Below, in pieces: positions 23,638 to 57,622 of a DNA stretch of 64,000 nucleotides. The translations under genes were made by a program, and so were the position numbers. The DNA is taken from positions 51,775 to 115,774 of the IMG/VR virus record IMGVR_UViG_2933953506_000002, one strand, 5' to 3'. The DNA comes from a virus (Duplodnaviria; Caudoviricetes). The notes beneath the pieces were generated by a model, which made no database searches, had not been told where the DNA came from, and saw only the letters and a program-made list of their open reading frames with translations. Within the stretch, counting starts at the first letter, position 1. Each line of letters opens with the position of its first letter.

Positions 23638-23696
23638 CCAGACGCGAACGACACGGTGCCCGGCGGCCCACTGTCCACCGCCGGAGGTTCCCCGCC

Positions 23697-25625
23697 GTGC
23701 CGAGCGCTCCACCCACCAGATCGTCACACCCGAACACCCTGCGAGGCACCAGCCGGGCAATCTACGCCGTCACTGGCGTGGTCGACGAGGTCAACGACCT
23801 CATCGTCCCCGGCGCCTTCGCCCACACCCTGGCCACCCGTCGCGTCAAGGCTGTATGGCACCACGAATGGAAGGACGCCGTCGGCGTCGTCCTGCACGTG
23901 GAGGAGTGGCTACCCGGCGACCCCAGGTTCGCCGACGTCCCCGACTGGCCCGCCGAGGCCGGCGCGCTGGTCGCAACCGTCGAGTACAACCGGCGCACCA
24001 GCAAGGGCCGCGACACCTACGAGCAGGTCAAGCAGTGGTACGAGCACGGCGAGGCCGCGTTCTCCATCGGCTACCGCGTGCCCGCAGACGGAGCCACCCG
24101 CCGCGGTGACGGCGTCCGCGTCATCCACCGCCTCGACCTGTTCGAAGTGAGCCCCGTCCTGCACGGCGCGCACCCGATGACCCGGGCGCTCGAGGTCAAG
24201 GCCGCGGCCAACCCCGGCATGGAGTACAAGGCGACGCCAAACGTCGTCGAACTCGACACAGGGAAAGACGAGGACCGCATCAAGGTCGCCGGACTCGTCC
24301 TCAAGGCCGAGGACACCGGCCGCGTCCTGCTCATCCAGCGCGCACTCGACGACGAGGACCCGGCCGCTGGAACCTGGGAGTTCCCCGGCGGCCACCTGGA
24401 GAAGGACGAGGACGCGCTCGCCGCGGCGCTGCGCGAGTGGCAGGAAGAGACCGGCGCCGAACTCCCCGGATCGGCAAGCGTAGTCGGCTCCTGGACCGCC
24501 CCGAACGGCATCTATCGCGGGTTCGTAGCCATAGTCCCCGGCGAGTCCCACGTACCCCTGAACCAGCCCCCCAGCGAACGACGGGTGACCAACCCTGACG
24601 ACCCCCAGGGCGAAACGCCAGAGGTCACCGCCTGGTGGCCGATCACCGCCCTCCCCGACATGTCCCTGCTCCGCCCCGCCTGCCGTGAGACCCCCTGGTC
24701 CCTCCTGGCAGGCGCCACCCTGCCGCAGGGCCCGGCGGCCAAGAAGCCCAGCGCCGAGGCCGAGCAGTTCGCCGCCGGCGTCATGAACACCTACGCCGCT
24801 CTCGGCACCACGGAAGCGAAGTCCGCGCACGTCGCAGTAGCCGCCGCCCGCTCCGTCCAGCCGCGCATCGAGCACAAGTCCGCCCGCTCCACGGTCGCCG
24901 AGGCCAAGAGCCATCCCACGCCCCTCTCGGAGGCTTCTGTGATGTCCCGCACCCCCCTGCCCGAGTCCCAAGAGCAGTTCCGTGCCCGCCTCTCCGACAG
25001 CGTCCGCGAACTCCTCGACCAGGACGGCCAGACCTGGACGTGCGTCGAAGGCACCTACCCGGACCGCGTCATCGTGTCCGTACACAGCGAGGACGAGCGG
25101 CGCAGCAGTTACTACGCCATCCCTTACACGGCCGCCACGAATGGCGAGATCAGCCTCGGCACCCCTCAGCCCGTCGAACTCGCCACGGTCGTACTCCCGG
25201 AGGGCGCCAGCGCACAACGCACGGCCACCGACGCGGAAGACGTCGACGCCCGCGTCGTGCAGCCCACAGTGGAAGCCCTCGCCGACGCCACCGCCCGCAT
25301 CAACACCACCGAGGCTGACCCGGACCAACTCACGGGCGTACGGGACAAGGTGCGCACGCTGATCGCCGCCCTGTCCGCGAAGGGCCTCGACGTCGCCGGC
25401 GACGCCAGCGAGCCGACGTCCGCCCCCGCCCGGGACCGCCTGGCCGGCCCCACCGGCATGGACCTGTGGGACGACTACACGTTCGCCGACGACGAGAACG
25501 ACGAGGTACCCACGGAGGCGGCTCCGCCGCCCGCCGAGGAGGACGTCGACGCGGAGGACGACCCGGACACGGTCCGGCTGGACGAGGACGAAGTGAAGTC
25601 CGTGCTCGCCATGATGCGGAGCTGA
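23697..25625 (+). CDS. HK97-type prohead protease fused to a NUDIX hydrolase and a scaffold-like C-terminus
   Basis: DLIVPGAF, WHHEW, FSIGY and LFEVSPV protease motifs; Nudix box GGHLEKDEDALAAALREWQEETG. Confidence 0.88.
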   Translation: MPSAPPTRSSHPNTLRGTSRAIYAVTGVVDEVNDLIVPGAFAHTLATRRVKAVWHHEWKDAVGVVLHVEEWLPGDPRFADVPDWPAEAGALVATVEYNRRTSKGRDTYEQVKQWYEHGEAAFSIGYRVPADGATRRGDGVRVIHRLDLFEVSPVLHGAHPMTRALEVKAAANPGMEYKATPNVVELDTGKDEDRIKVAGLVLKAEDTGRVLLIQRALDDEDPAAGTWEFPGGHLEKDEDALAAALREWQEETGAELPGSASVVGSWTAPNGIYRGFVAIVPGESHVPLNQPPSERRVTNPDDPQGETPEVTAWWPITALPDMSLLRPACRETPWSLLAGATLPQGPAAKKPSAEAEQFAAGVMNTYAALGTTEAKSAHVAVAAARSVQPRIEHKSARSTVAEAKSHPTPLSEASVMSRTPLPESQEQFRARLSDSVRELLDQDGQTWTCVEGTYPDRVIVSVHSEDERRSSYYAIPYTAATNGEISLGTPQPVELATVVLPEGASAQRTATDAEDVDARVVQPTVEALADATARINTTEADPDQLTGVRDKVRTLIAALSAKGLDVAGDASEPTSAPARDRLAGPTGMDLWDDYTFADDENDEVPTEAAPPPAEEDVDAEDDPDTVRLDEDEVKSVLAMMRS

Positions 25626-25698
25626 GTCGCGCGACCCAGCTTCCCCCGCTCTCGGTGCCTTTCCAACGGCATGACGAAAAACCGCAGGTCAAACCTAT

Positions 25699-25734
25699 GC
25701 GCTGCCCGCTCTTGACTCCCTGAGCGGGCAGCGC
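25699..25734. terminator. 13-bp stem-loop between the protease and capsid genes
   Basis: GCGCTGCCCGCTC-10 nt loop-GAGCGGGCAGCGC. Confidence 0.55.
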
Positions 25735-25766
25735 GCGACGTTAACCCCTCTCTCCCTCTTCACTCC
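25734..25766 (+). promoter_or_regulatory. Late-promoter-like motif (CGCGACGTTAAC) upstream of the capsid gene; -10 element atypical
   Basis: Exact match to the upstream 12-mer of the 57552 copy. Confidence 0.6.
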
Positions 25767-25849
25767 CGCCTCGCGTTGAGGCTGTCCCGGTGCTGGCCGG
25801 GCGGAGCGACGCACGTCAACCGCACCCCAGCACCAGGGAGAGAGCAGCA

Positions 25850-56244: not shown

Positions 56245-56880
56245 GTGACCGAGACGATCGCCAGGCCGCCGCGCTACATCGCCTACGTGCCGCTCACCGA
56301 ACTGACGCCGGCACCGCGGAACCCCAAGCGGCACGAGCTGGAACTTCTCATCGACGCCATCCGCATGCACGGCCTGGTCGACGTCCCCGTCGCTGATGAG
56401 CGCACCCAATACGTCCTCCACGGCCACGGCCGCCGCGAGGCCCTGATCGAGATGCAGAACCGCGGGATGTCCCTGCCCGGCGGCGTCGTCCTCGACGAGG
56501 ACGGCGGATGGCTCGTCCCCCTGCTGCGCGGCTGGTCCTCCCGATCCGACGCCGAAGCTGAGGCCCTGGCTATCAAGCTCAACCGCCTCCCGGGCGAAGG
56601 TGGATGGGACCCCCGCGAGTTCGCCGCGGTCCTCGAGGACCTGGCGACCGGCGACGCGGAGCTGTTCGACTCACTGGCCATCCCCCACGACGAGATCGAC
56701 AAGCTCCTCGGCCAGGTCGACCCCGAGACCCTGCCCGGCGGCATCCGCGAGGACGAACCGCCCACACTGCACCTGCCCGACGACGGCGAACGGGAGGGTG
56801 GCCTCAGCCCCGACGACGACGGCCGCGCCGCACACACGACCTGCCCCGCCTGCGGCCACCTGTTCAACAGCGGCCGCTGA
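56245..56880 (+). CDS. ParB/Srx N-terminal-domain protein with C-terminal CxxC
   Basis: VPLTELTPAPRNPKRH, VLHGHGRREAL, TCPACGH. Confidence 0.82.
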   Translation: MTETIARPPRYIAYVPLTELTPAPRNPKRHELELLIDAIRMHGLVDVPVADERTQYVLHGHGRREALIEMQNRGMSLPGGVVLDEDGGWLVPLLRGWSSRSDAEAEALAIKLNRLPGEGGWDPREFAAVLEDLATGDAELFDSLAIPHDEIDKLLGQVDPETLPGGIREDEPPTLHLPDDGEREGGLSPDDDGRAAHTTCPACGHLFNSGR

Positions 56881-56900
56881 ACCCGCCGCGAGGTCCCCCC

Positions 56901-57542
56901 ATGTCCAACCGACGCAAGGCCCGCCGGCCACAGAGCCGCGGCGGCCGCCCGCGCCTGCTCTCCGACGAGGTCGAGGCGCGCCTCGTCAATGCCTCTCGAA
57001 CGGGCATCGCCGTCGAGCTGGCCGCCGAGATGGCCGGGATCTCCCGTACCAGCTTCCTGCGCTGGATGGCGCTCGGCCGTGCCGAGATCGAGGCCCGCGA
57101 GTCAGGGGAGGAACCCGACGAGGAGGCGGAGGAGTACGCCGCCCTGTACGAGAGGGTCCGCACCGCACGCGCCCACGCGGCCGCGCGCGCCATGGCGAAC
57201 ATCCGCAGGGTGGCAGACGGCGGAATCGTCACCAAGGTCACCACCCGACGGTTCCGGGACTCCGTCACGGGCGAGATCGTCGAGGAAACCGTCGAGGACC
57301 GCACCTCCCCGGACTGGCGCGCGGACGCCTGGTACCTCGAGCGCCAGCACCGCGAGCACTACGGCAAGGACGCTGTGGTGGCCGTCGAGATCACTGGCCT
57401 GGGCGGACCGGCCGGAGACGACGAGCAGCCCGTCGACCTGTCGGCGCTCGCCGAACGCCTCGACAAGACGCTGTTCTCGGTCAAGTACCCGCCAGAGCTG
57501 GAGGACGGAAGCGTTGTCGACGCCGAGGTCATCGACCCCTGA
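56901..57542 (+). CDS. Terminase small subunit-like HTH protein
   Basis: GRPRLLS...AAEMAGISRTSFLRW and DWRADAWYLER motifs. Confidence 0.65.
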   Translation: MSNRRKARRPQSRGGRPRLLSDEVEARLVNASRTGIAVELAAEMAGISRTSFLRWMALGRAEIEARESGEEPDEEAEEYAALYERVRTARAHAAARAMANIRRVADGGIVTKVTTRRFRDSVTGEIVEETVEDRTSPDWRADAWYLERQHREHYGKDAVVAVEITGLGGPAGDDEQPVDLSALAERLDKTLFSVKYPPELEDGSVVDAEVIDP

Positions 57543-57551
57543 CGGCCAGCA

Positions 57552-57582
57552 CGCGACGTTAACCATCCGCGCCTTGCACGGT
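57552..57582 (+). promoter_or_regulatory. Late-promoter-like motif CGCGAC-N19-CACGGT
   Basis: Conserved spacing, upstream of the endolysin. Confidence 0.75.
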
Positions 57583-57622
57583 GCCCTTTCCACTGATCAT
57601 CCAAGCGGAGGGCACCACCCCC

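What the first reader, a model, noticed from the sequence alone, without database searches (positions are those of the whole stretch)
23660..57616. Translation lock: late genes are leaderless or carry an anti-SD arm that the late transcript would omit
Seen: where a leader follows the motif, the RBS is complementary to a segment in or upstream of the promoter. Capsid: CTCTCTCCCT 25748-57 / AGGGAGAGAG 25835-44 (10 bp). IPT gene: 28816-24 / 28844-52 (9 bp). Major tail: GCTCTCCAAGG 33367-77 / CCTTGGAGAGC 33402-12 (11 bp). Chaperone: 34000-11 / 34093-104 (12 bp). Minor tail: 39941-50 / 39965-73. Holin: 47102-09 / 47129-37. Endolysin: 57580-87 / 57609-16. Protease: 23660-66 / 23678-84. Five other genes (2234, 5397, 22821, 32647, 42230) start 6-8 nt after the -10 box with no RBS. 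The 29478 gene shows only a weak 5-bp match. Knowledge: T4 uses RBS-sequestering hairpins on early read-through mRNA for a few late genes such as e and soc. Inference: here the design looks systematic, so read-through mRNA would be translationally silent and only promoter-proximal transcripts translated.
Basis: partly seen in the sequence, partly recalled or inferred. Interest (0 to 1): 0.88.

Follow-up and report, generated by a model that had tools for sequence, protein, structure and literature searches.

The report
Promoter-embedded locks on phage ribosome sites
In a group of temperate Streptomyces phages, many particle and lysis genes either start right at their promoter or have a ribosome-binding site that can pair with their own promoter sequence, so only messages started at that promoter should be translated well; this resembles a phage T4 trick, and no RNA data exist yet.

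Summary
The window is the right 64 kb of a 115.8-kb Gilgamesh-like temperate Streptomyces phage. All 8 claimed stems are at the stated coordinates: 6 are perfect and 2 have one bulge. About 14 same-strand promoters share an 18-mer, a fixed spacer and a cAnnnT-type box. The phage encodes an ECF sigma factor.

- **Leaderless genes:** four genes, plus one doubtful, start 33-36 nt after the motif with no SD.
- **Predicted pairing in the window:** in 8 of 9 leadered genes the SD is predicted to pair with sequence upstream of the predicted start site. Five of the 9 beat shuffles individually.
- **Relatives:** across about 30 related phages and prophages, 109 of 154 promoter-proximal leaders are "locked", against 60 of 206 control gene starts.
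- **Co-variation:** cognate arms pair better than cross-locus arms in 5 of 8 families.
- **Exceptions:** the 29478 gene shows no lock, the protease stem is indistinguishable from chance, and Gilgamesh itself is weak.

The T4-like reading is plausible but rests on predicted start sites; no RNA run was listed. "Systematic" is overstated. Earlier notes of this scan reported similar promoter-in-hairpin designs in other phages. I class this as a new variant of a known kind.

The parts
2191..2208 (+). Promoter 18-mer; gene starts at 2234 (leaderless, GAC+35)
   Evidence: PWM 21.3; no SD; Gilgamesh orthologue keeps the motif and spacing
5354..5371 (+). Promoter 18-mer of the giant ORF; start at 5397 (leaderless) or at the in-frame ATG 5385
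   Evidence: PWM 24.7
22780..22797 (+). Weak, doubtful motif before the 22821 gene
   Evidence: PWM 11.9; no hit of at least 13 bits at the Gilgamesh homologue
23622..23639 (+). Promoter 18-mer of the prohead protease-NUDIX gene (start 23697)
   Evidence: PWM 19.5; Pfam Peptidase_S78 + NUDIX
23660..23684 (+). Protease stem 23660-66 / 23678-84 (7 bp, G+C only); 5' arm straddles the predicted start site (23665)
   Evidence: z -0.12; 1 of 8 relatives locked; region nearly invariant, so no co-variation information
25729..25746 (+). Promoter 18-mer of the major capsid gene (start 25850, predicted leader 78 nt)
   Evidence: PWM 25.0; PHROG major head protein
25748..25757 (+). Capsid 5' arm, in the promoter spacer
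   Evidence: 10-bp perfect complement of 25835-25844; z -3.3
25835..25844 (+). Capsid 3' arm covering the SD
   Evidence: 14 of 21 relatives locked
28784..28801 (+). Promoter 18-mer of the IPT/TIG-domain gene (start 28858)
   Evidence: PWM 17.0; Pfam TIG
28816..28852 (+). IPT stem 28816-24 / 28844-52 (9 bp); 5' arm ends 3 nt before the predicted start site 28827
   Evidence: z -3.7; 14 of 20 relatives locked; no consensus on the MAFFT alignment
29404..29421 (+). Promoter 18-mer of the 29478 gene: leadered, no lock
   Evidence: PWM 22.4; occupancy 0.05; 0 of 7 relatives
32604..32621 (+). Promoter 18-mer; gene starts at 32647 (leaderless)
   Evidence: 16 of 16 distinct relatives have the start 34-35 nt after GAC
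33343..33360 (+). Promoter 18-mer of the major tail (tail tube) gene (start 33418)
   Evidence: PWM 21.1; Pfam Phage_TTP_17
33367..33412 (+). Major-tail hairpin: arms 33367-33385 / 33394-33412 (17 pairs, 8-nt loop); the 5' arm ends at predicted start site -1
   Evidence: z -4.2; I6; 22 of 29 relatives locked; 14-16 bp perfect helices in 9 relatives
34000..34104 (+). Chaperone three-tier hairpin. Outer arms 34000-11 (overlapping the tail-gene stop codon) / 34093-104 (SD). The middle stem pairs the motif with the discriminator. The promoter 18-mer (34016-34033) lies inside.
   Evidence: 88.5% of cells paired, 0/500 shuffles reach it; z -6.8; I7; 29 of 30 relatives locked
39909..39926 (+). Promoter 18-mer of the minor tail gene (start 39983)
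   Evidence: PWM 24.2; PHROG minor tail protein
39941..39973 (+). Minor-tail stem 39941-50 / 39965-73 (one bulge); 5' arm ends 2 nt before the predicted start site
   Evidence: shuffle fraction 0.04; z -1.1; arms differ and match in relatives; 17 of 26 locked
42186..42203 (+). Promoter 18-mer; tail-fibre-like gene starts at 42230 (leaderless here). 14 relatives instead have a 31-47-nt leader; the 13 distinct ones carry a long lock.
   Evidence: (12 of 13)
47068..47085 (+).
   Evidence: PWM 19.6; no family hit
47102..47137 (+). Stem 47102-09 / 47129-37 (one bulge); 5' arm ends 2 nt before the predicted start site
   Evidence: z -0.35; 7 of 8 relatives at or above 0.5; one relative (L056) has a perfect 9-bp version with changes on both arms; weak consensus
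57547..57564 (+). Promoter 18-mer of the endolysin (amidase) gene (start 57623)
   Evidence: PWM 26.6; Pfam Amidase_2
57580..57616 (+). Endolysin stem 57580-87 / 57609-16 (8 bp); 5' arm ends 3 nt before the predicted start site
   Evidence: z -2.0; 10 of 10 motif-bearing relatives locked; RNAalifold recovers a 10-pair helix de novo
61277..61945 (-). ECF-type sigma factor gene, the likely reader of the motif
   Evidence: Pfam Sigma70_r2, r4_2, ECF; best NCBIfam model is the BldN family, 111 bits, below its cutoff of 206; Gilgamesh gp92 is annotated as a sigma factor

Best explanation
The window carries the late regulon of a Gilgamesh-like temperate Streptomyces phage. About 14 same-strand promoters share an 18-mer containing CGCGAC and a TAAC-type box, a 17-nt spacer, a cAnnnT / GT-type box, and then about 6-8 nt to the start site. 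They are most likely read by the phage's own ECF sigma factor.

The first gene behind each promoter takes one of two forms. It is either leaderless, with the start codon at the predicted start site, or it has a short leader, usually about 31 nt. In the leadered form the SD is complementary to the promoter's own spacer and -10 region. For the chaperone it is complementary to sequence just upstream of the promoter.

A transcript arriving from upstream contains both arms and folds the SD into a helix. An internal AUG without an SD is likewise poorly used. A transcript begun at the gene's own promoter starts in the hairpin loop, lacks the 5' arm and leaves the SD more open. Translation of these first genes would therefore be tied to firing of their own promoter. 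That would shield capsid, tail and lysis genes from read-through made before the sigma factor acts, or made in the lysogen.

Shown: the stems, their enrichment, their position relative to the motif, and their conservation and co-variation. Inferred: the start sites, the sigma dependence, the existence of read-through RNA, and the effect on translation.
For: Promoter:
- The 12-mer core has 7 hits, all on the + strand, against 1.4 expected; 0 of 100 shuffles reach 7.
- PWM hits of at least 16 bits number 15, all on the + strand. The matrix was built from the window's own sites.
- The same sites stand at orthologous positions in Gilgamesh: 17 hits of at least 13 bits, all +.
- An ECF sigma gene is present.
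- No sigma-70-like promoter was found in 22-42 kb.

Start site: leaderless start codons lie 34-36 nt after GAC in 16 of 16 and 15 of 31 related sequences.

Lock in the window:
- Cognate promoter/SD duplexes average -22.1 kcal/mol against -17.2 for the 72 cross pairs; permutation p = 0.0002.
- SD occupancy by upstream sequence is 0.61-0.92 in 8 of 9 genes. Shuffle fractions are 0.00-0.04 for 5 of them.
- SD-unpaired probability rises from 0.07-0.32 in long RNAs to 0.28-0.69 in short RNAs in those 8.

Controls:
- Own genome: median 0.68 (n = 9) against 0.21 (n = 36 non-late genes), p = 0.001.
- 65 Gilgamesh non-late genes preceded by an intergenic gap of at least 50 nt average 0.24.
- Across loci, 109 of 154 late leaders against 60 of 206 control starts reach 0.5. 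The family-level test gives p = 0.010.
- Late exceeds control in 27 of 29 loci.

Geometry: SD partners lie at -35..-1 of the predicted start site in 830 of 1000 paired SD positions outside the chaperone and 29478 families.

Co-evolution:
- Cross-locus permutation: major tail p < 5e-5, leadered 42230 type 5e-5, chaperone 0.0015, minor tail 0.006, capsid 0.03.
- The chaperone outer helix has 3 pairs changed on both sides.
- 6 of 8 alifold pairs are compensated in the leadered 42230 family.
- The endolysin helix is recovered de novo.
- Both-arm changes occur in L044 and L056.

Precedent: T4 genes e, soc, 49 and I-TevI (PMC3014915, passages of section 29 read).
Against: - No start site, transcript or translation datum exists; no RNA run was listed.
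- Four of 9 window structures are not better than shuffles.
- Four of 9 have shuffle fractions of 0.11-0.53 for SD occupancy.
- The 29478 gene (0 of 7) and the protease (1 of 8) are not locked.
- Gilgamesh alone is not significant: p = 0.23 with a fixed pseudo-start site, p = 0.08 with GAC+35. Its late mean is below its control mean, as is that of L031.
- Cross-locus tests are null for IPT (0.86), protease (0.83) and 29478 (0.25).
- The major-tail stem in the window's register shows no significant co-variation on the MAFFT alignment.
- RNAalifold finds nothing for IPT and only 4 pairs for the 'holin'.
- Off-target promoter/SD duplexes are already strong, -17 kcal/mol on average, because the -10 region is C/T-rich and the DNA is 69% G+C.
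- With leaders of about 31 nt, any 5' partner of the SD must lie upstream of the start site, so arm position alone is weak evidence.
- Short transcripts are only partly open.
- Only the first cistron after each promoter is covered, so insulation of whole operons is not explained.
Confidence: 0.5

Rival explanations
1. The hairpins act on the upstream message as terminators, attenuators, 3'-end stabilisers or RNase III sites that insulate neighbouring late transcription units. Overlap with the SD would be a by-product of packing a promoter and a hairpin into an intergenic gap of 60-110 nt.
For: The strongest structures follow highly expressed genes. The chaperone hairpin begins at the stop codon of the tail-tube gene, with z -6.8. 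A further 13-bp hairpin overlaps the 5' end of the capsid 18-mer. No other terminator-like site lies on the + strand in 22-42 kb.
Against: None of the hairpins is followed by a T run: 0 terminator-like sites on the + strand. In all 8 claimed stems the 3' arm ends 3-13 nt before the start codon, that is, on the SD. An insulator has no need for this. In 5 stems the 5' arm ends 1-3 nt before the predicted start site, which fits exclusion from the late RNA.
Confidence: 0.15
2. The complementarity has no function. It would follow from composition (a C/T-rich -10 and discriminator region, purine-rich SDs, 69% G+C) together with the first reader having picked the best stems.
For: Cross pairs of any promoter with any SD average -17 kcal/mol. 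Shuffled upstream sequence still occupies the SD at 0.14-0.55. Four of 9 folds are not better than shuffles. 29% of control gene starts also reach 0.5.
Against: Cognate pairs beat cross pairs within the window (p = 0.0002). They also do so between loci in 5 of 8 families. That test keeps composition fixed. Perfect repeats of at least 9 bp fall on 4 of 9 late SDs against 0.45 expected, and on 0 of 36 non-late genes. Changes on both arms keep the pairing.
Confidence: 0.15
3. Transcription starts upstream of the 5' arms, for example directly after the 18-mer. The hairpins would then sit in every late mRNA, either as 5' stabilisers or as a block opened by a phage factor or by temperature.
For: No start site is mapped. 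The capsid leader holds a further, almost invariant 60-nt structured stretch, so leader RNA structure matters for at least one gene.
Against: Start codons without an SD sit at a fixed 34-36 nt from the motif in up to 16 of 16 relatives. This is the signature of a start site at the start codon. The motif geometry (AAC-type box, 17 nt, GT-type box) fits the 16-18 bp spacers used for ECF sigma promoters (PMC7776599, passages read). Permanent SD occlusion would be odd for capsid and tail-tube genes.
Confidence: 0.1
4. For the chaperone only, the hairpin is a translational coupling device. A ribosome finishing the tail-tube gene melts the 5' arm, which overlaps that gene's stop codon, and frees the chaperone SD about 90 nt downstream.
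For: The 5' arm contains the TGA of the tail-tube gene in the window, and the arm is kept in most of the 30 aligned sequences. The outer helix is 80% paired across the 30 sequences, with 3 compensated pairs.
Against: The other stems begin 23 nt or more beyond the upstream stop codon, out of reach of a terminating ribosome. A promoter sits inside the chaperone hairpin, which coupling alone does not need. This reading is compatible with the lock rather than opposed to it.
Confidence: 0.1

Closest known systems
Phage T4 genes e (lysozyme), soc, 49 and I-TevI: a late promoter inside an RBS-sequestering hairpin (Uzan and Miller 2010, PMC3014915; passages of section 29 read)
   Same: The SD or start codon is paired on transcripts coming from upstream. 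A late promoter lies in the DNA encoding the 5' strand, so late transcripts lack that strand and are translated. A lysis enzyme is among the genes covered.
   Different: The promoter and sigma are different: an ECF-type sigma and a bipartite G+C-rich motif, not TATAAATA with gp55. The host is a high-G+C actinobacterium and the phage is temperate. About 8 promoter-proximal genes per genome are covered rather than a few. The alternative form at the same promoter class is a leaderless mRNA. Nothing here is shown experimentally.
Protection of IS10 and IS50 transposase genes from outside transcription (recalled from Kleckner's and Reznikoff's work; no paper seen, and PMC1203939 was not held)
   Same: Read-through transcripts carry an extra 5' segment that pairs with the ribosome-binding site. 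Transcripts from the element's own promoter do not.
   Different: That case concerns a single gene in a transposon, not a viral regulon. The comparison rests on recall only.
Leaderless mRNAs of actinobacteria (general knowledge, recalled)
   Same: The start codon is at the 5' end, there is no SD, and the promoter sits at a fixed distance.
   Different: Here leaderless and locked-leader forms alternate within one promoter class. They even alternate between orthologues of one gene: in the 42230 family, 15 sequences are leaderless, 14 are leadered and 2 have no motif, of 31.
ECF sigma promoters, BldN-like group
   Same: The sigma has regions 2 and 4 only. Its best NCBIfam model is the BldN family. 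The motif is bipartite with an AAC-type -35 and a spacer of about 17 nt.
   Different: The score of 111 bits is below the family cutoff of 206, so it is not a BldN equivalog. The cognate motif was inferred here, not taken from the literature.
Earlier notes of this scan on other phages (e1-5966704, e1-5355487, e1-5866871 and others)
   Same: They describe late promoters overlapping one arm of an RBS-hiding hairpin, sometimes with leaderless alternatives.
   Different: They come from other genomes, mostly T4-like. They are AI notes that I did not check, and I do not count them as evidence.

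Membership tests
T4-type promoter-in-hairpin translational gating | SD or start codon paired in a helix on transcripts from upstream | tested here: met
   In silico only. 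8 of 9 window genes have occupancy 0.61-0.92. 109 of 154 related leaders reach 0.5, against 60 of 206 controls.
T4-type promoter-in-hairpin translational gating | Start site inside the hairpin, so the late RNA lacks the 5' arm | tested here: inconclusive
   The start site is predicted from motif geometry and leaderless spacing. 5' arms end 1-3 nt before it in 5 genes. It has not been mapped.
T4-type promoter-in-hairpin translational gating | Read-through transcripts exist and are poorly translated | not testable with these tools
   No RNA holder was listed.
T4-type promoter-in-hairpin translational gating | T4 late promoter (TATAAATA) read by gp55 | tested here: not met
   The motif is different and G+C-rich and the sigma is ECF-type. 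This is an analogue, not a homologue.
ECF sigma-dependent promoter | ECF sigma gene in the genome | tested here: met
   Window 61277-61945 (-): Sigma70_r2, r4_2 and ECF.
ECF sigma-dependent promoter | Bipartite motif with a 16-18 bp spacer | tested here: met
   TAAC-type box, 17 nt, GT/CT box, read. Spacer range taken from PMC7776599.
ECF sigma-dependent promoter | Transcription depends on that sigma | not testable with these tools
   -
BldN family (TIGR02952) | Score above the curated cutoff | tested here: not met
   111.2 bits against a cutoff of 206.45.
Leaderless mRNA | Start codon at a fixed distance from the promoter, with no SD | tested here: met
   34-36 nt after GAC in the window and in 16 of 16 and 15 of 31 relatives. 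Anti-SD duplex energies are 0.7 or higher.
Leaderless mRNA | 5' end of the mRNA at the start codon | not testable with these tools
   -
Intrinsic terminator | G+C-rich hairpin followed by a T run | tested here: not met
   0 terminator-like sites on the + strand in 22-42 kb. No T run follows any 3' arm.
Known RNA families (Rfam 15) | Match at gathering score | tested here: not met
   0 matches in the window.

The most novel reading that the evidence does not exclude
Transcript-origin-gated translation is a built-in rule of a whole late regulon. In this lineage of temperate Streptomyces phages and phage-plasmid-like elements, every first cistron behind an ECF-sigma late promoter is translatable only from an RNA that starts at that promoter. 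This holds either because the mRNA is leaderless or because the promoter's own spacer and -10 DNA encodes the anti-SD strand. Orthologues switch between the two solutions during evolution.
Probability: 0.4. Interest if true: 0.72.

Novelty: new variant of a known kind. Interest (0 to 1): 0.55.

Why it matters
If the start sites are where the motif geometry puts them, this lineage uses one rule to tie translation to promoter choice. It applies the rule at about a dozen genes at once, in a high-G+C Gram-positive host and with an ECF sigma factor.

That would extend a mechanism known from a handful of T4 genes into a regulon-wide design. It would explain why late leaders here are either absent or about 31 nt long. 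It would also give a testable reason why a temperate phage or plasmid-prophage can tolerate read-through across capsid, tail and lysis genes.

Two practical points follow:
- It warns annotators that the longest-ORF starts at 2225/5385, and their Gilgamesh counterparts, may be wrong.
- It offers compact promoter-leader modules for Streptomyces synthetic biology that are insulated from upstream transcription.

Tried and rejected
- **RNA evidence:** one search for sequencing runs holding window 25000-34999 listed no RNA holder.
- **Column-based co-variation for the major tail:** this failed because the two subgroups pair in shifted registers. I relied instead on per-sequence folding and cross-locus permutation.
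- **RNAalifold on MAFFT alignments:** it gave no consensus for IPT and only 4 pairs for the 'holin'. For the major tail it did not return the long-range stem.
- **Spacer conservation:** per-column entropy did not separate locked from leaderless promoters, so I dropped that argument.
- **Gilgamesh-only comparison:** not significant.
- **Bug corrected:** the capsid and chaperone families were treated as controls because of a name prefix. This was corrected, and the numbers for those two families are not used.
- **Repeat count:** the inverted-repeat count over-counts nested long palindromes. Only the order of magnitude is used.
- It was added and the report sent again unchanged otherwise.
- **Literature searches:**
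  - Streptomyces phage late promoters: 1 paper on another phage, listing only.
  - Leaderless late genes in actinophages: listing only, nothing relevant.
  - Gilgamesh: 0 papers.
  - IS10 read-through protection: nothing usable.
  - PMC1203939 is not held.
  - A BldN promoter consensus was not found in PMC4255298.
  - From these searches I cannot say the design is unpublished for actinophages, only that searches found no description.
- **Supplements:** supplements of papers were not opened.
- **Rejected ideas:**
  - A dimeric-protein operator, because arm sequences and arm spacing (8-81 nt) differ from gene to gene.
  - A known riboswitch or leader family, because Rfam gave none.

Full report
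**What the DNA is.** The window is bases 51775-115774 of a single 115,774-bp contig with 69% G+C. Its nearest record in the phage collection is Streptomyces phage Gilgamesh (129 kb), at about 80% identity over window 23000-35000. Gilgamesh carries integrases, ParA/ParB-like genes and the same gene order: portal-MuF fusion, giant ORF, protease, capsid, tail genes, then lysin A near an SSB gene and a sigma factor on the other strand. In the window I confirmed the following by family search:
- prohead protease S78 fused to NUDIX (23697);
- major head protein (25850);
- a TIG/IPT-domain protein (28858);
- tail tube protein (33418);
- minor tail protein (39983);
- a tail-fibre-like protein (42230);
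- an amidase endolysin (57623).

**The motif and the promoter reading.**
- A 12-letter core pattern with at most 1 mismatch gives 7 hits, all on the + strand. 1.4 are expected, and 0 of 100 shuffles reach 7.
- A weight matrix from 13-14 window sites finds 15 hits of at least 16 bits in the whole genome, all on the + strand. They stand in front of virion, packaging and lysis genes. This is circular for the window's own sites.
- The same matrix finds 17 hits of at least 13 bits, all on the + strand, at orthologous places in the first 118 kb of Gilgamesh.
- Seventeen bases after the AAC-type box comes a GT (or CT) inside a cAnnnT-like hexamer, followed by a G+C-rich stretch (read).
- The phage encodes an ECF-type sigma factor at 61277-61945 (-) (Pfam r2, r4_2, ECF). 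Its best NCBIfam model is the BldN family, at 111 bits, below the cutoff of 206.
- ECF promoters are scored with 16-18 bp spacers (PMC7776599, passages read), which fits.
- No sigma-70-like promoter was found in 22-42 kb.

**Predicted start sites.** Four genes (2234, 5397, 32647, 42230) have their start codon 35-36 nt after the G of GAC and no SD. This spacing is kept in relatives. All 16 distinct 32647-family sequences have 34-35 nt. In the 42230 family, 15 of 31 rows have 35-36 nt, 14 have a leader and 2 have no motif. A fixed promoter-to-AUG distance without an SD is what leaderless mRNAs look like. I therefore take GAC+35 as the predicted start site. This is an inference and no RNA evidence exists. 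The fifth "leaderless" gene, 22821, has a weak motif (11.9 bits) and no motif at its Gilgamesh homologue, so it is doubtful.

**The stems.** All 8 are at the stated coordinates; 6 are perfect and 2 have a bulge. Each is part of the minimum-energy fold of its promoter-leader segment.
- Four segments fold far better than shuffles: chaperone z -6.8, major tail -4.2, IPT -3.7, capsid -3.3.
- One is moderately better: endolysin -2.0.
- Four are not better: 29478 gene, minor tail, 'holin', protease.

Arms 33367-33385 and 33394-33412 form 17 pairs around an 8-nt loop. The 5' arm ends at the base before the predicted start site (33386).

The chaperone region is a three-tier rod. The outer stem pairs the tail-gene stop codon region with the chaperone SD. 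The middle stem pairs the 18-mer with the discriminator region. A small apical stem tops it.

In the IPT, minor-tail, 'holin', endolysin and major-tail genes the 5' arm ends 1-3 nt before GAC+35. For the protease it straddles that point.

**Is it more than chance?** Within the window, cognate promoter/SD duplexes average -22.1 kcal/mol, against -17.2 for the 72 cross pairs; permutation p = 0.0002. I defined "lock occupancy" as the mean probability that bases -16 to -4 pair with anything upstream of the predicted start site, in an RNA that begins 100 nt upstream of it.
- Occupancy is 0.61-0.92 in 8 of 9 leadered genes and 0.05 for the 29478 gene.
- Shuffling the upstream part gives 0.14-0.55.
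- The fraction of shuffles reaching the observed value is 0.00-0.04 for major tail, chaperone, capsid, endolysin and minor tail.
- That fraction is 0.11-0.53 for 'holin', IPT, protease and 29478.
- In RNAs that begin at the predicted start site, the SD-unpaired probability rises from 0.07-0.32 to 0.28-0.69 in those 8 genes. This is a moderate effect, not an all-or-none one.
- Perfect repeats of at least 9 bp fall on 4 of the 9 late SD windows, against 0.45 expected, and on 0 of 36 mapped non-late genes.

**Controls at other genes.**
- In the window's own genome, 53 of 133 Gilgamesh N-termini mapped and 49 were usable. Nine motif-bearing leadered genes have median occupancy 0.68, against 0.21 for 36 other genes; Mann-Whitney p = 0.001.
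- In Gilgamesh, 65 non-late genes preceded by at least 50 nt of intergenic DNA average 0.24. An intergenic position alone therefore does not explain the effect.
- Gilgamesh's own late leaders average only 0.34 (p = 0.08; p = 0.23 with a fixed pseudo-start site). Only its major-tail, chaperone and endolysin leaders are clearly locked.

**Relatives.** Using the tail-tube protein as query I fetched 15 viral contigs and 14 Streptomyces genome contigs, each with 10-kb flanks. Many sit on contigs of about 125 kb. I then fetched 18 endolysin and 8 'holin' loci. The table counts distinct sequences with occupancy of at least 0.5.

| Family | Locked / measured |
|---|---|
| chaperone | 29 / 30 |
| leadered 42230 type | 12 / 13 |
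| major tail | 22 / 29 |
| IPT | 14 / 20 |
| capsid | 14 / 21 |
| minor tail | 17 / 26 |
| protease | 1 / 8 |
| 29478 gene | 0 / 7 |
| endolysin | 10 / 10 |
| 'holin' | 7 / 8 |

The first eight families sum to 109 of 154. Nine families of internal genes from the same loci, with a pseudo-start site at -32, give 60 of 206. The family-level test gives p = 0.010. Late exceeds control in 27 of 29 loci. The exceptions are Gilgamesh and L031. The loci are related, so the Wilcoxon p of 3e-8 overstates the case. In minimum-energy folds the 5' partners of SD bases lie at -35..-1 in 830 of 1000 cases outside the chaperone family (which pairs upstream of -35: 268 of 278) and the 29478 family (none upstream).

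**Co-variation.** Swapping promoter and leader between loci of one family keeps composition fixed. It should show no difference under neutral, independent drift of the two arms.
- Cognate pairs are better for major tail (p < 5e-5), leadered 42230 type (5e-5), chaperone (0.0015), minor tail (0.006) and capsid (0.03).
- They are not better for IPT (0.86), protease (0.83) or 29478 (0.25).
- The named chaperone structure is 88.5% paired over 30 sequences. No shuffle of 500 reaches its paired fraction or its co-variation score. Its outer helix has 3 pairs changed on both sides.
- RNAalifold recovers the endolysin helix de novo, with 10 pairs.
- It also recovers an 8-pair helix, with 6 compensated pairs, in the leadered 42230 family.
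- Single events are telling. L044 has an extra base in both endolysin arms and a perfect 11-bp helix. L056 has matching changes in both 'holin' arms and a perfect 9-bp helix.
- Minor-tail arms differ widely between loci yet match within loci.
- Against this, the major-tail stem in the window's register shows no significant co-variation on the MAFFT alignment, because two subgroups pair in shifted registers. IPT and 'holin' give no or weak consensus structures.

**Interpretation.** The data fit the T4 model best. There the SD of genes e, soc, 49 and I-TevI is paired on transcripts from upstream, while a late promoter in the DNA for the 5' strand makes a shorter, translatable RNA (PMC3014915, section 29 passages).

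The endolysin case is closest to T4 gene e. It lies downstream, on the same strand, of ParB-like, small-terminase and HTH genes (by synteny with Gilgamesh). Read-through from a different temporal class is therefore plausible there.

Leaderless genes reach the same end by another route, since an internal AUG without an SD is poorly used (general knowledge). The switch of the 42230 orthologue between a leaderless form and a long locked leader supports the idea that these are two solutions to one requirement.

Limits:
- No start site is mapped.
- The lock is graded.
- It covers only first cistrons.
- It is absent at one promoter and doubtful at another.
- It is weak in the one cultured relative.

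The rivals are set out in the Rival explanations section: an insulator or terminator function, composition, an upstream start site, and coupling at the chaperone. The absence of T runs and the constant placement of the 3' arm on the SD argue against a pure terminator role.

**Novelty.** The principle is known from T4, and from IS10/IS50 by recall. Earlier notes of this scan report similar designs in other phages, including a "two-way lock" in a 91-kb phage. Those are unchecked AI notes and I do not count them as evidence. Four things are new here: the host group, the ECF-type promoter, the number of genes covered per genome, and the conservation across about 30 genomes. My searches found no description of this for actinophages, and Gilgamesh appears in no held paper.

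Noticed in passing
window 28760-28777; also L004-L032 upstream of the IPT promoter and, in L026-L028 and L030, upstream of the minor-tail promoter: An A+T-rich 18-bp palindrome with a CAATTG centre sits 6-20 nt upstream of late promoters. It is imperfect in the window and perfect in relatives. Two variants differ by a symmetric change on both halves. It could be a protein site (operator or parS-like) or a small hairpin. Earlier notes on relatives report the same element.
   Followed up: partly
window 25699-25734: A perfect 13-bp hairpin with a 10-nt loop has a 3' arm that overlaps the first bases of the capsid promoter 18-mer. It is kept in most relatives. It may be a terminator or insulator for the protease gene.
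   Followed up: no
window 25772-25834 (capsid leader): About 60 nt of the predicted capsid leader are almost invariant in 25 related loci, including loci whose flanks differ. The stretch folds into two hairpins just upstream of the SD. It may be a leader RNA element in its own right.
   Followed up: no
window 42186-42235 and L007-L013, L017, L018, L021, L022, L024, L031, L032: Orthologues of the tail-fibre-like gene are leaderless in 15 sequences. In 14 others they carry a 31-47-nt leader, a different N-terminus and a long SD-promoter helix.
   Followed up: partly
window 2225/2234 and 5385/5397; Gilgamesh 28782 and 31978: An in-frame ATG lies inside the promoter's -10-like box, 9-12 nt upstream of the predicted leaderless start. 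The Gilgamesh annotation uses the upstream ATG. If the mRNAs are leaderless, those annotated starts are 4 codons too long.
   Followed up: no
window 34014-34063; also 2196-2233, 5354-5396, 29404-29446: The motif core and the discriminator region of the same promoter are partly complementary to each other. The match is 11 bp at the chaperone, with G-C to A-U changes on both sides in L025 and L029.
   Followed up: partly
window 5385-22445: One open reading frame of 5,686 aa lies between the portal-MuF gene and the protease. Its Gilgamesh counterpart of 4,624 aa is annotated hypothetical. Other notes of the scan deal with it.
   Followed up: no
window 23428-23637: By position this 69-aa ORF corresponds to Gilgamesh gp51, which is annotated 'ribosome modulation factor'. 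It has no Pfam hit here.
   Followed up: partly
L019-L032: Relatives in Streptomyces assemblies often sit on separate contigs of 122-141 kb. This would fit extrachromosomal (plasmid-like) prophages with ParA/ParB. Some lie in larger contigs (591 and 873 kb).
   Followed up: no
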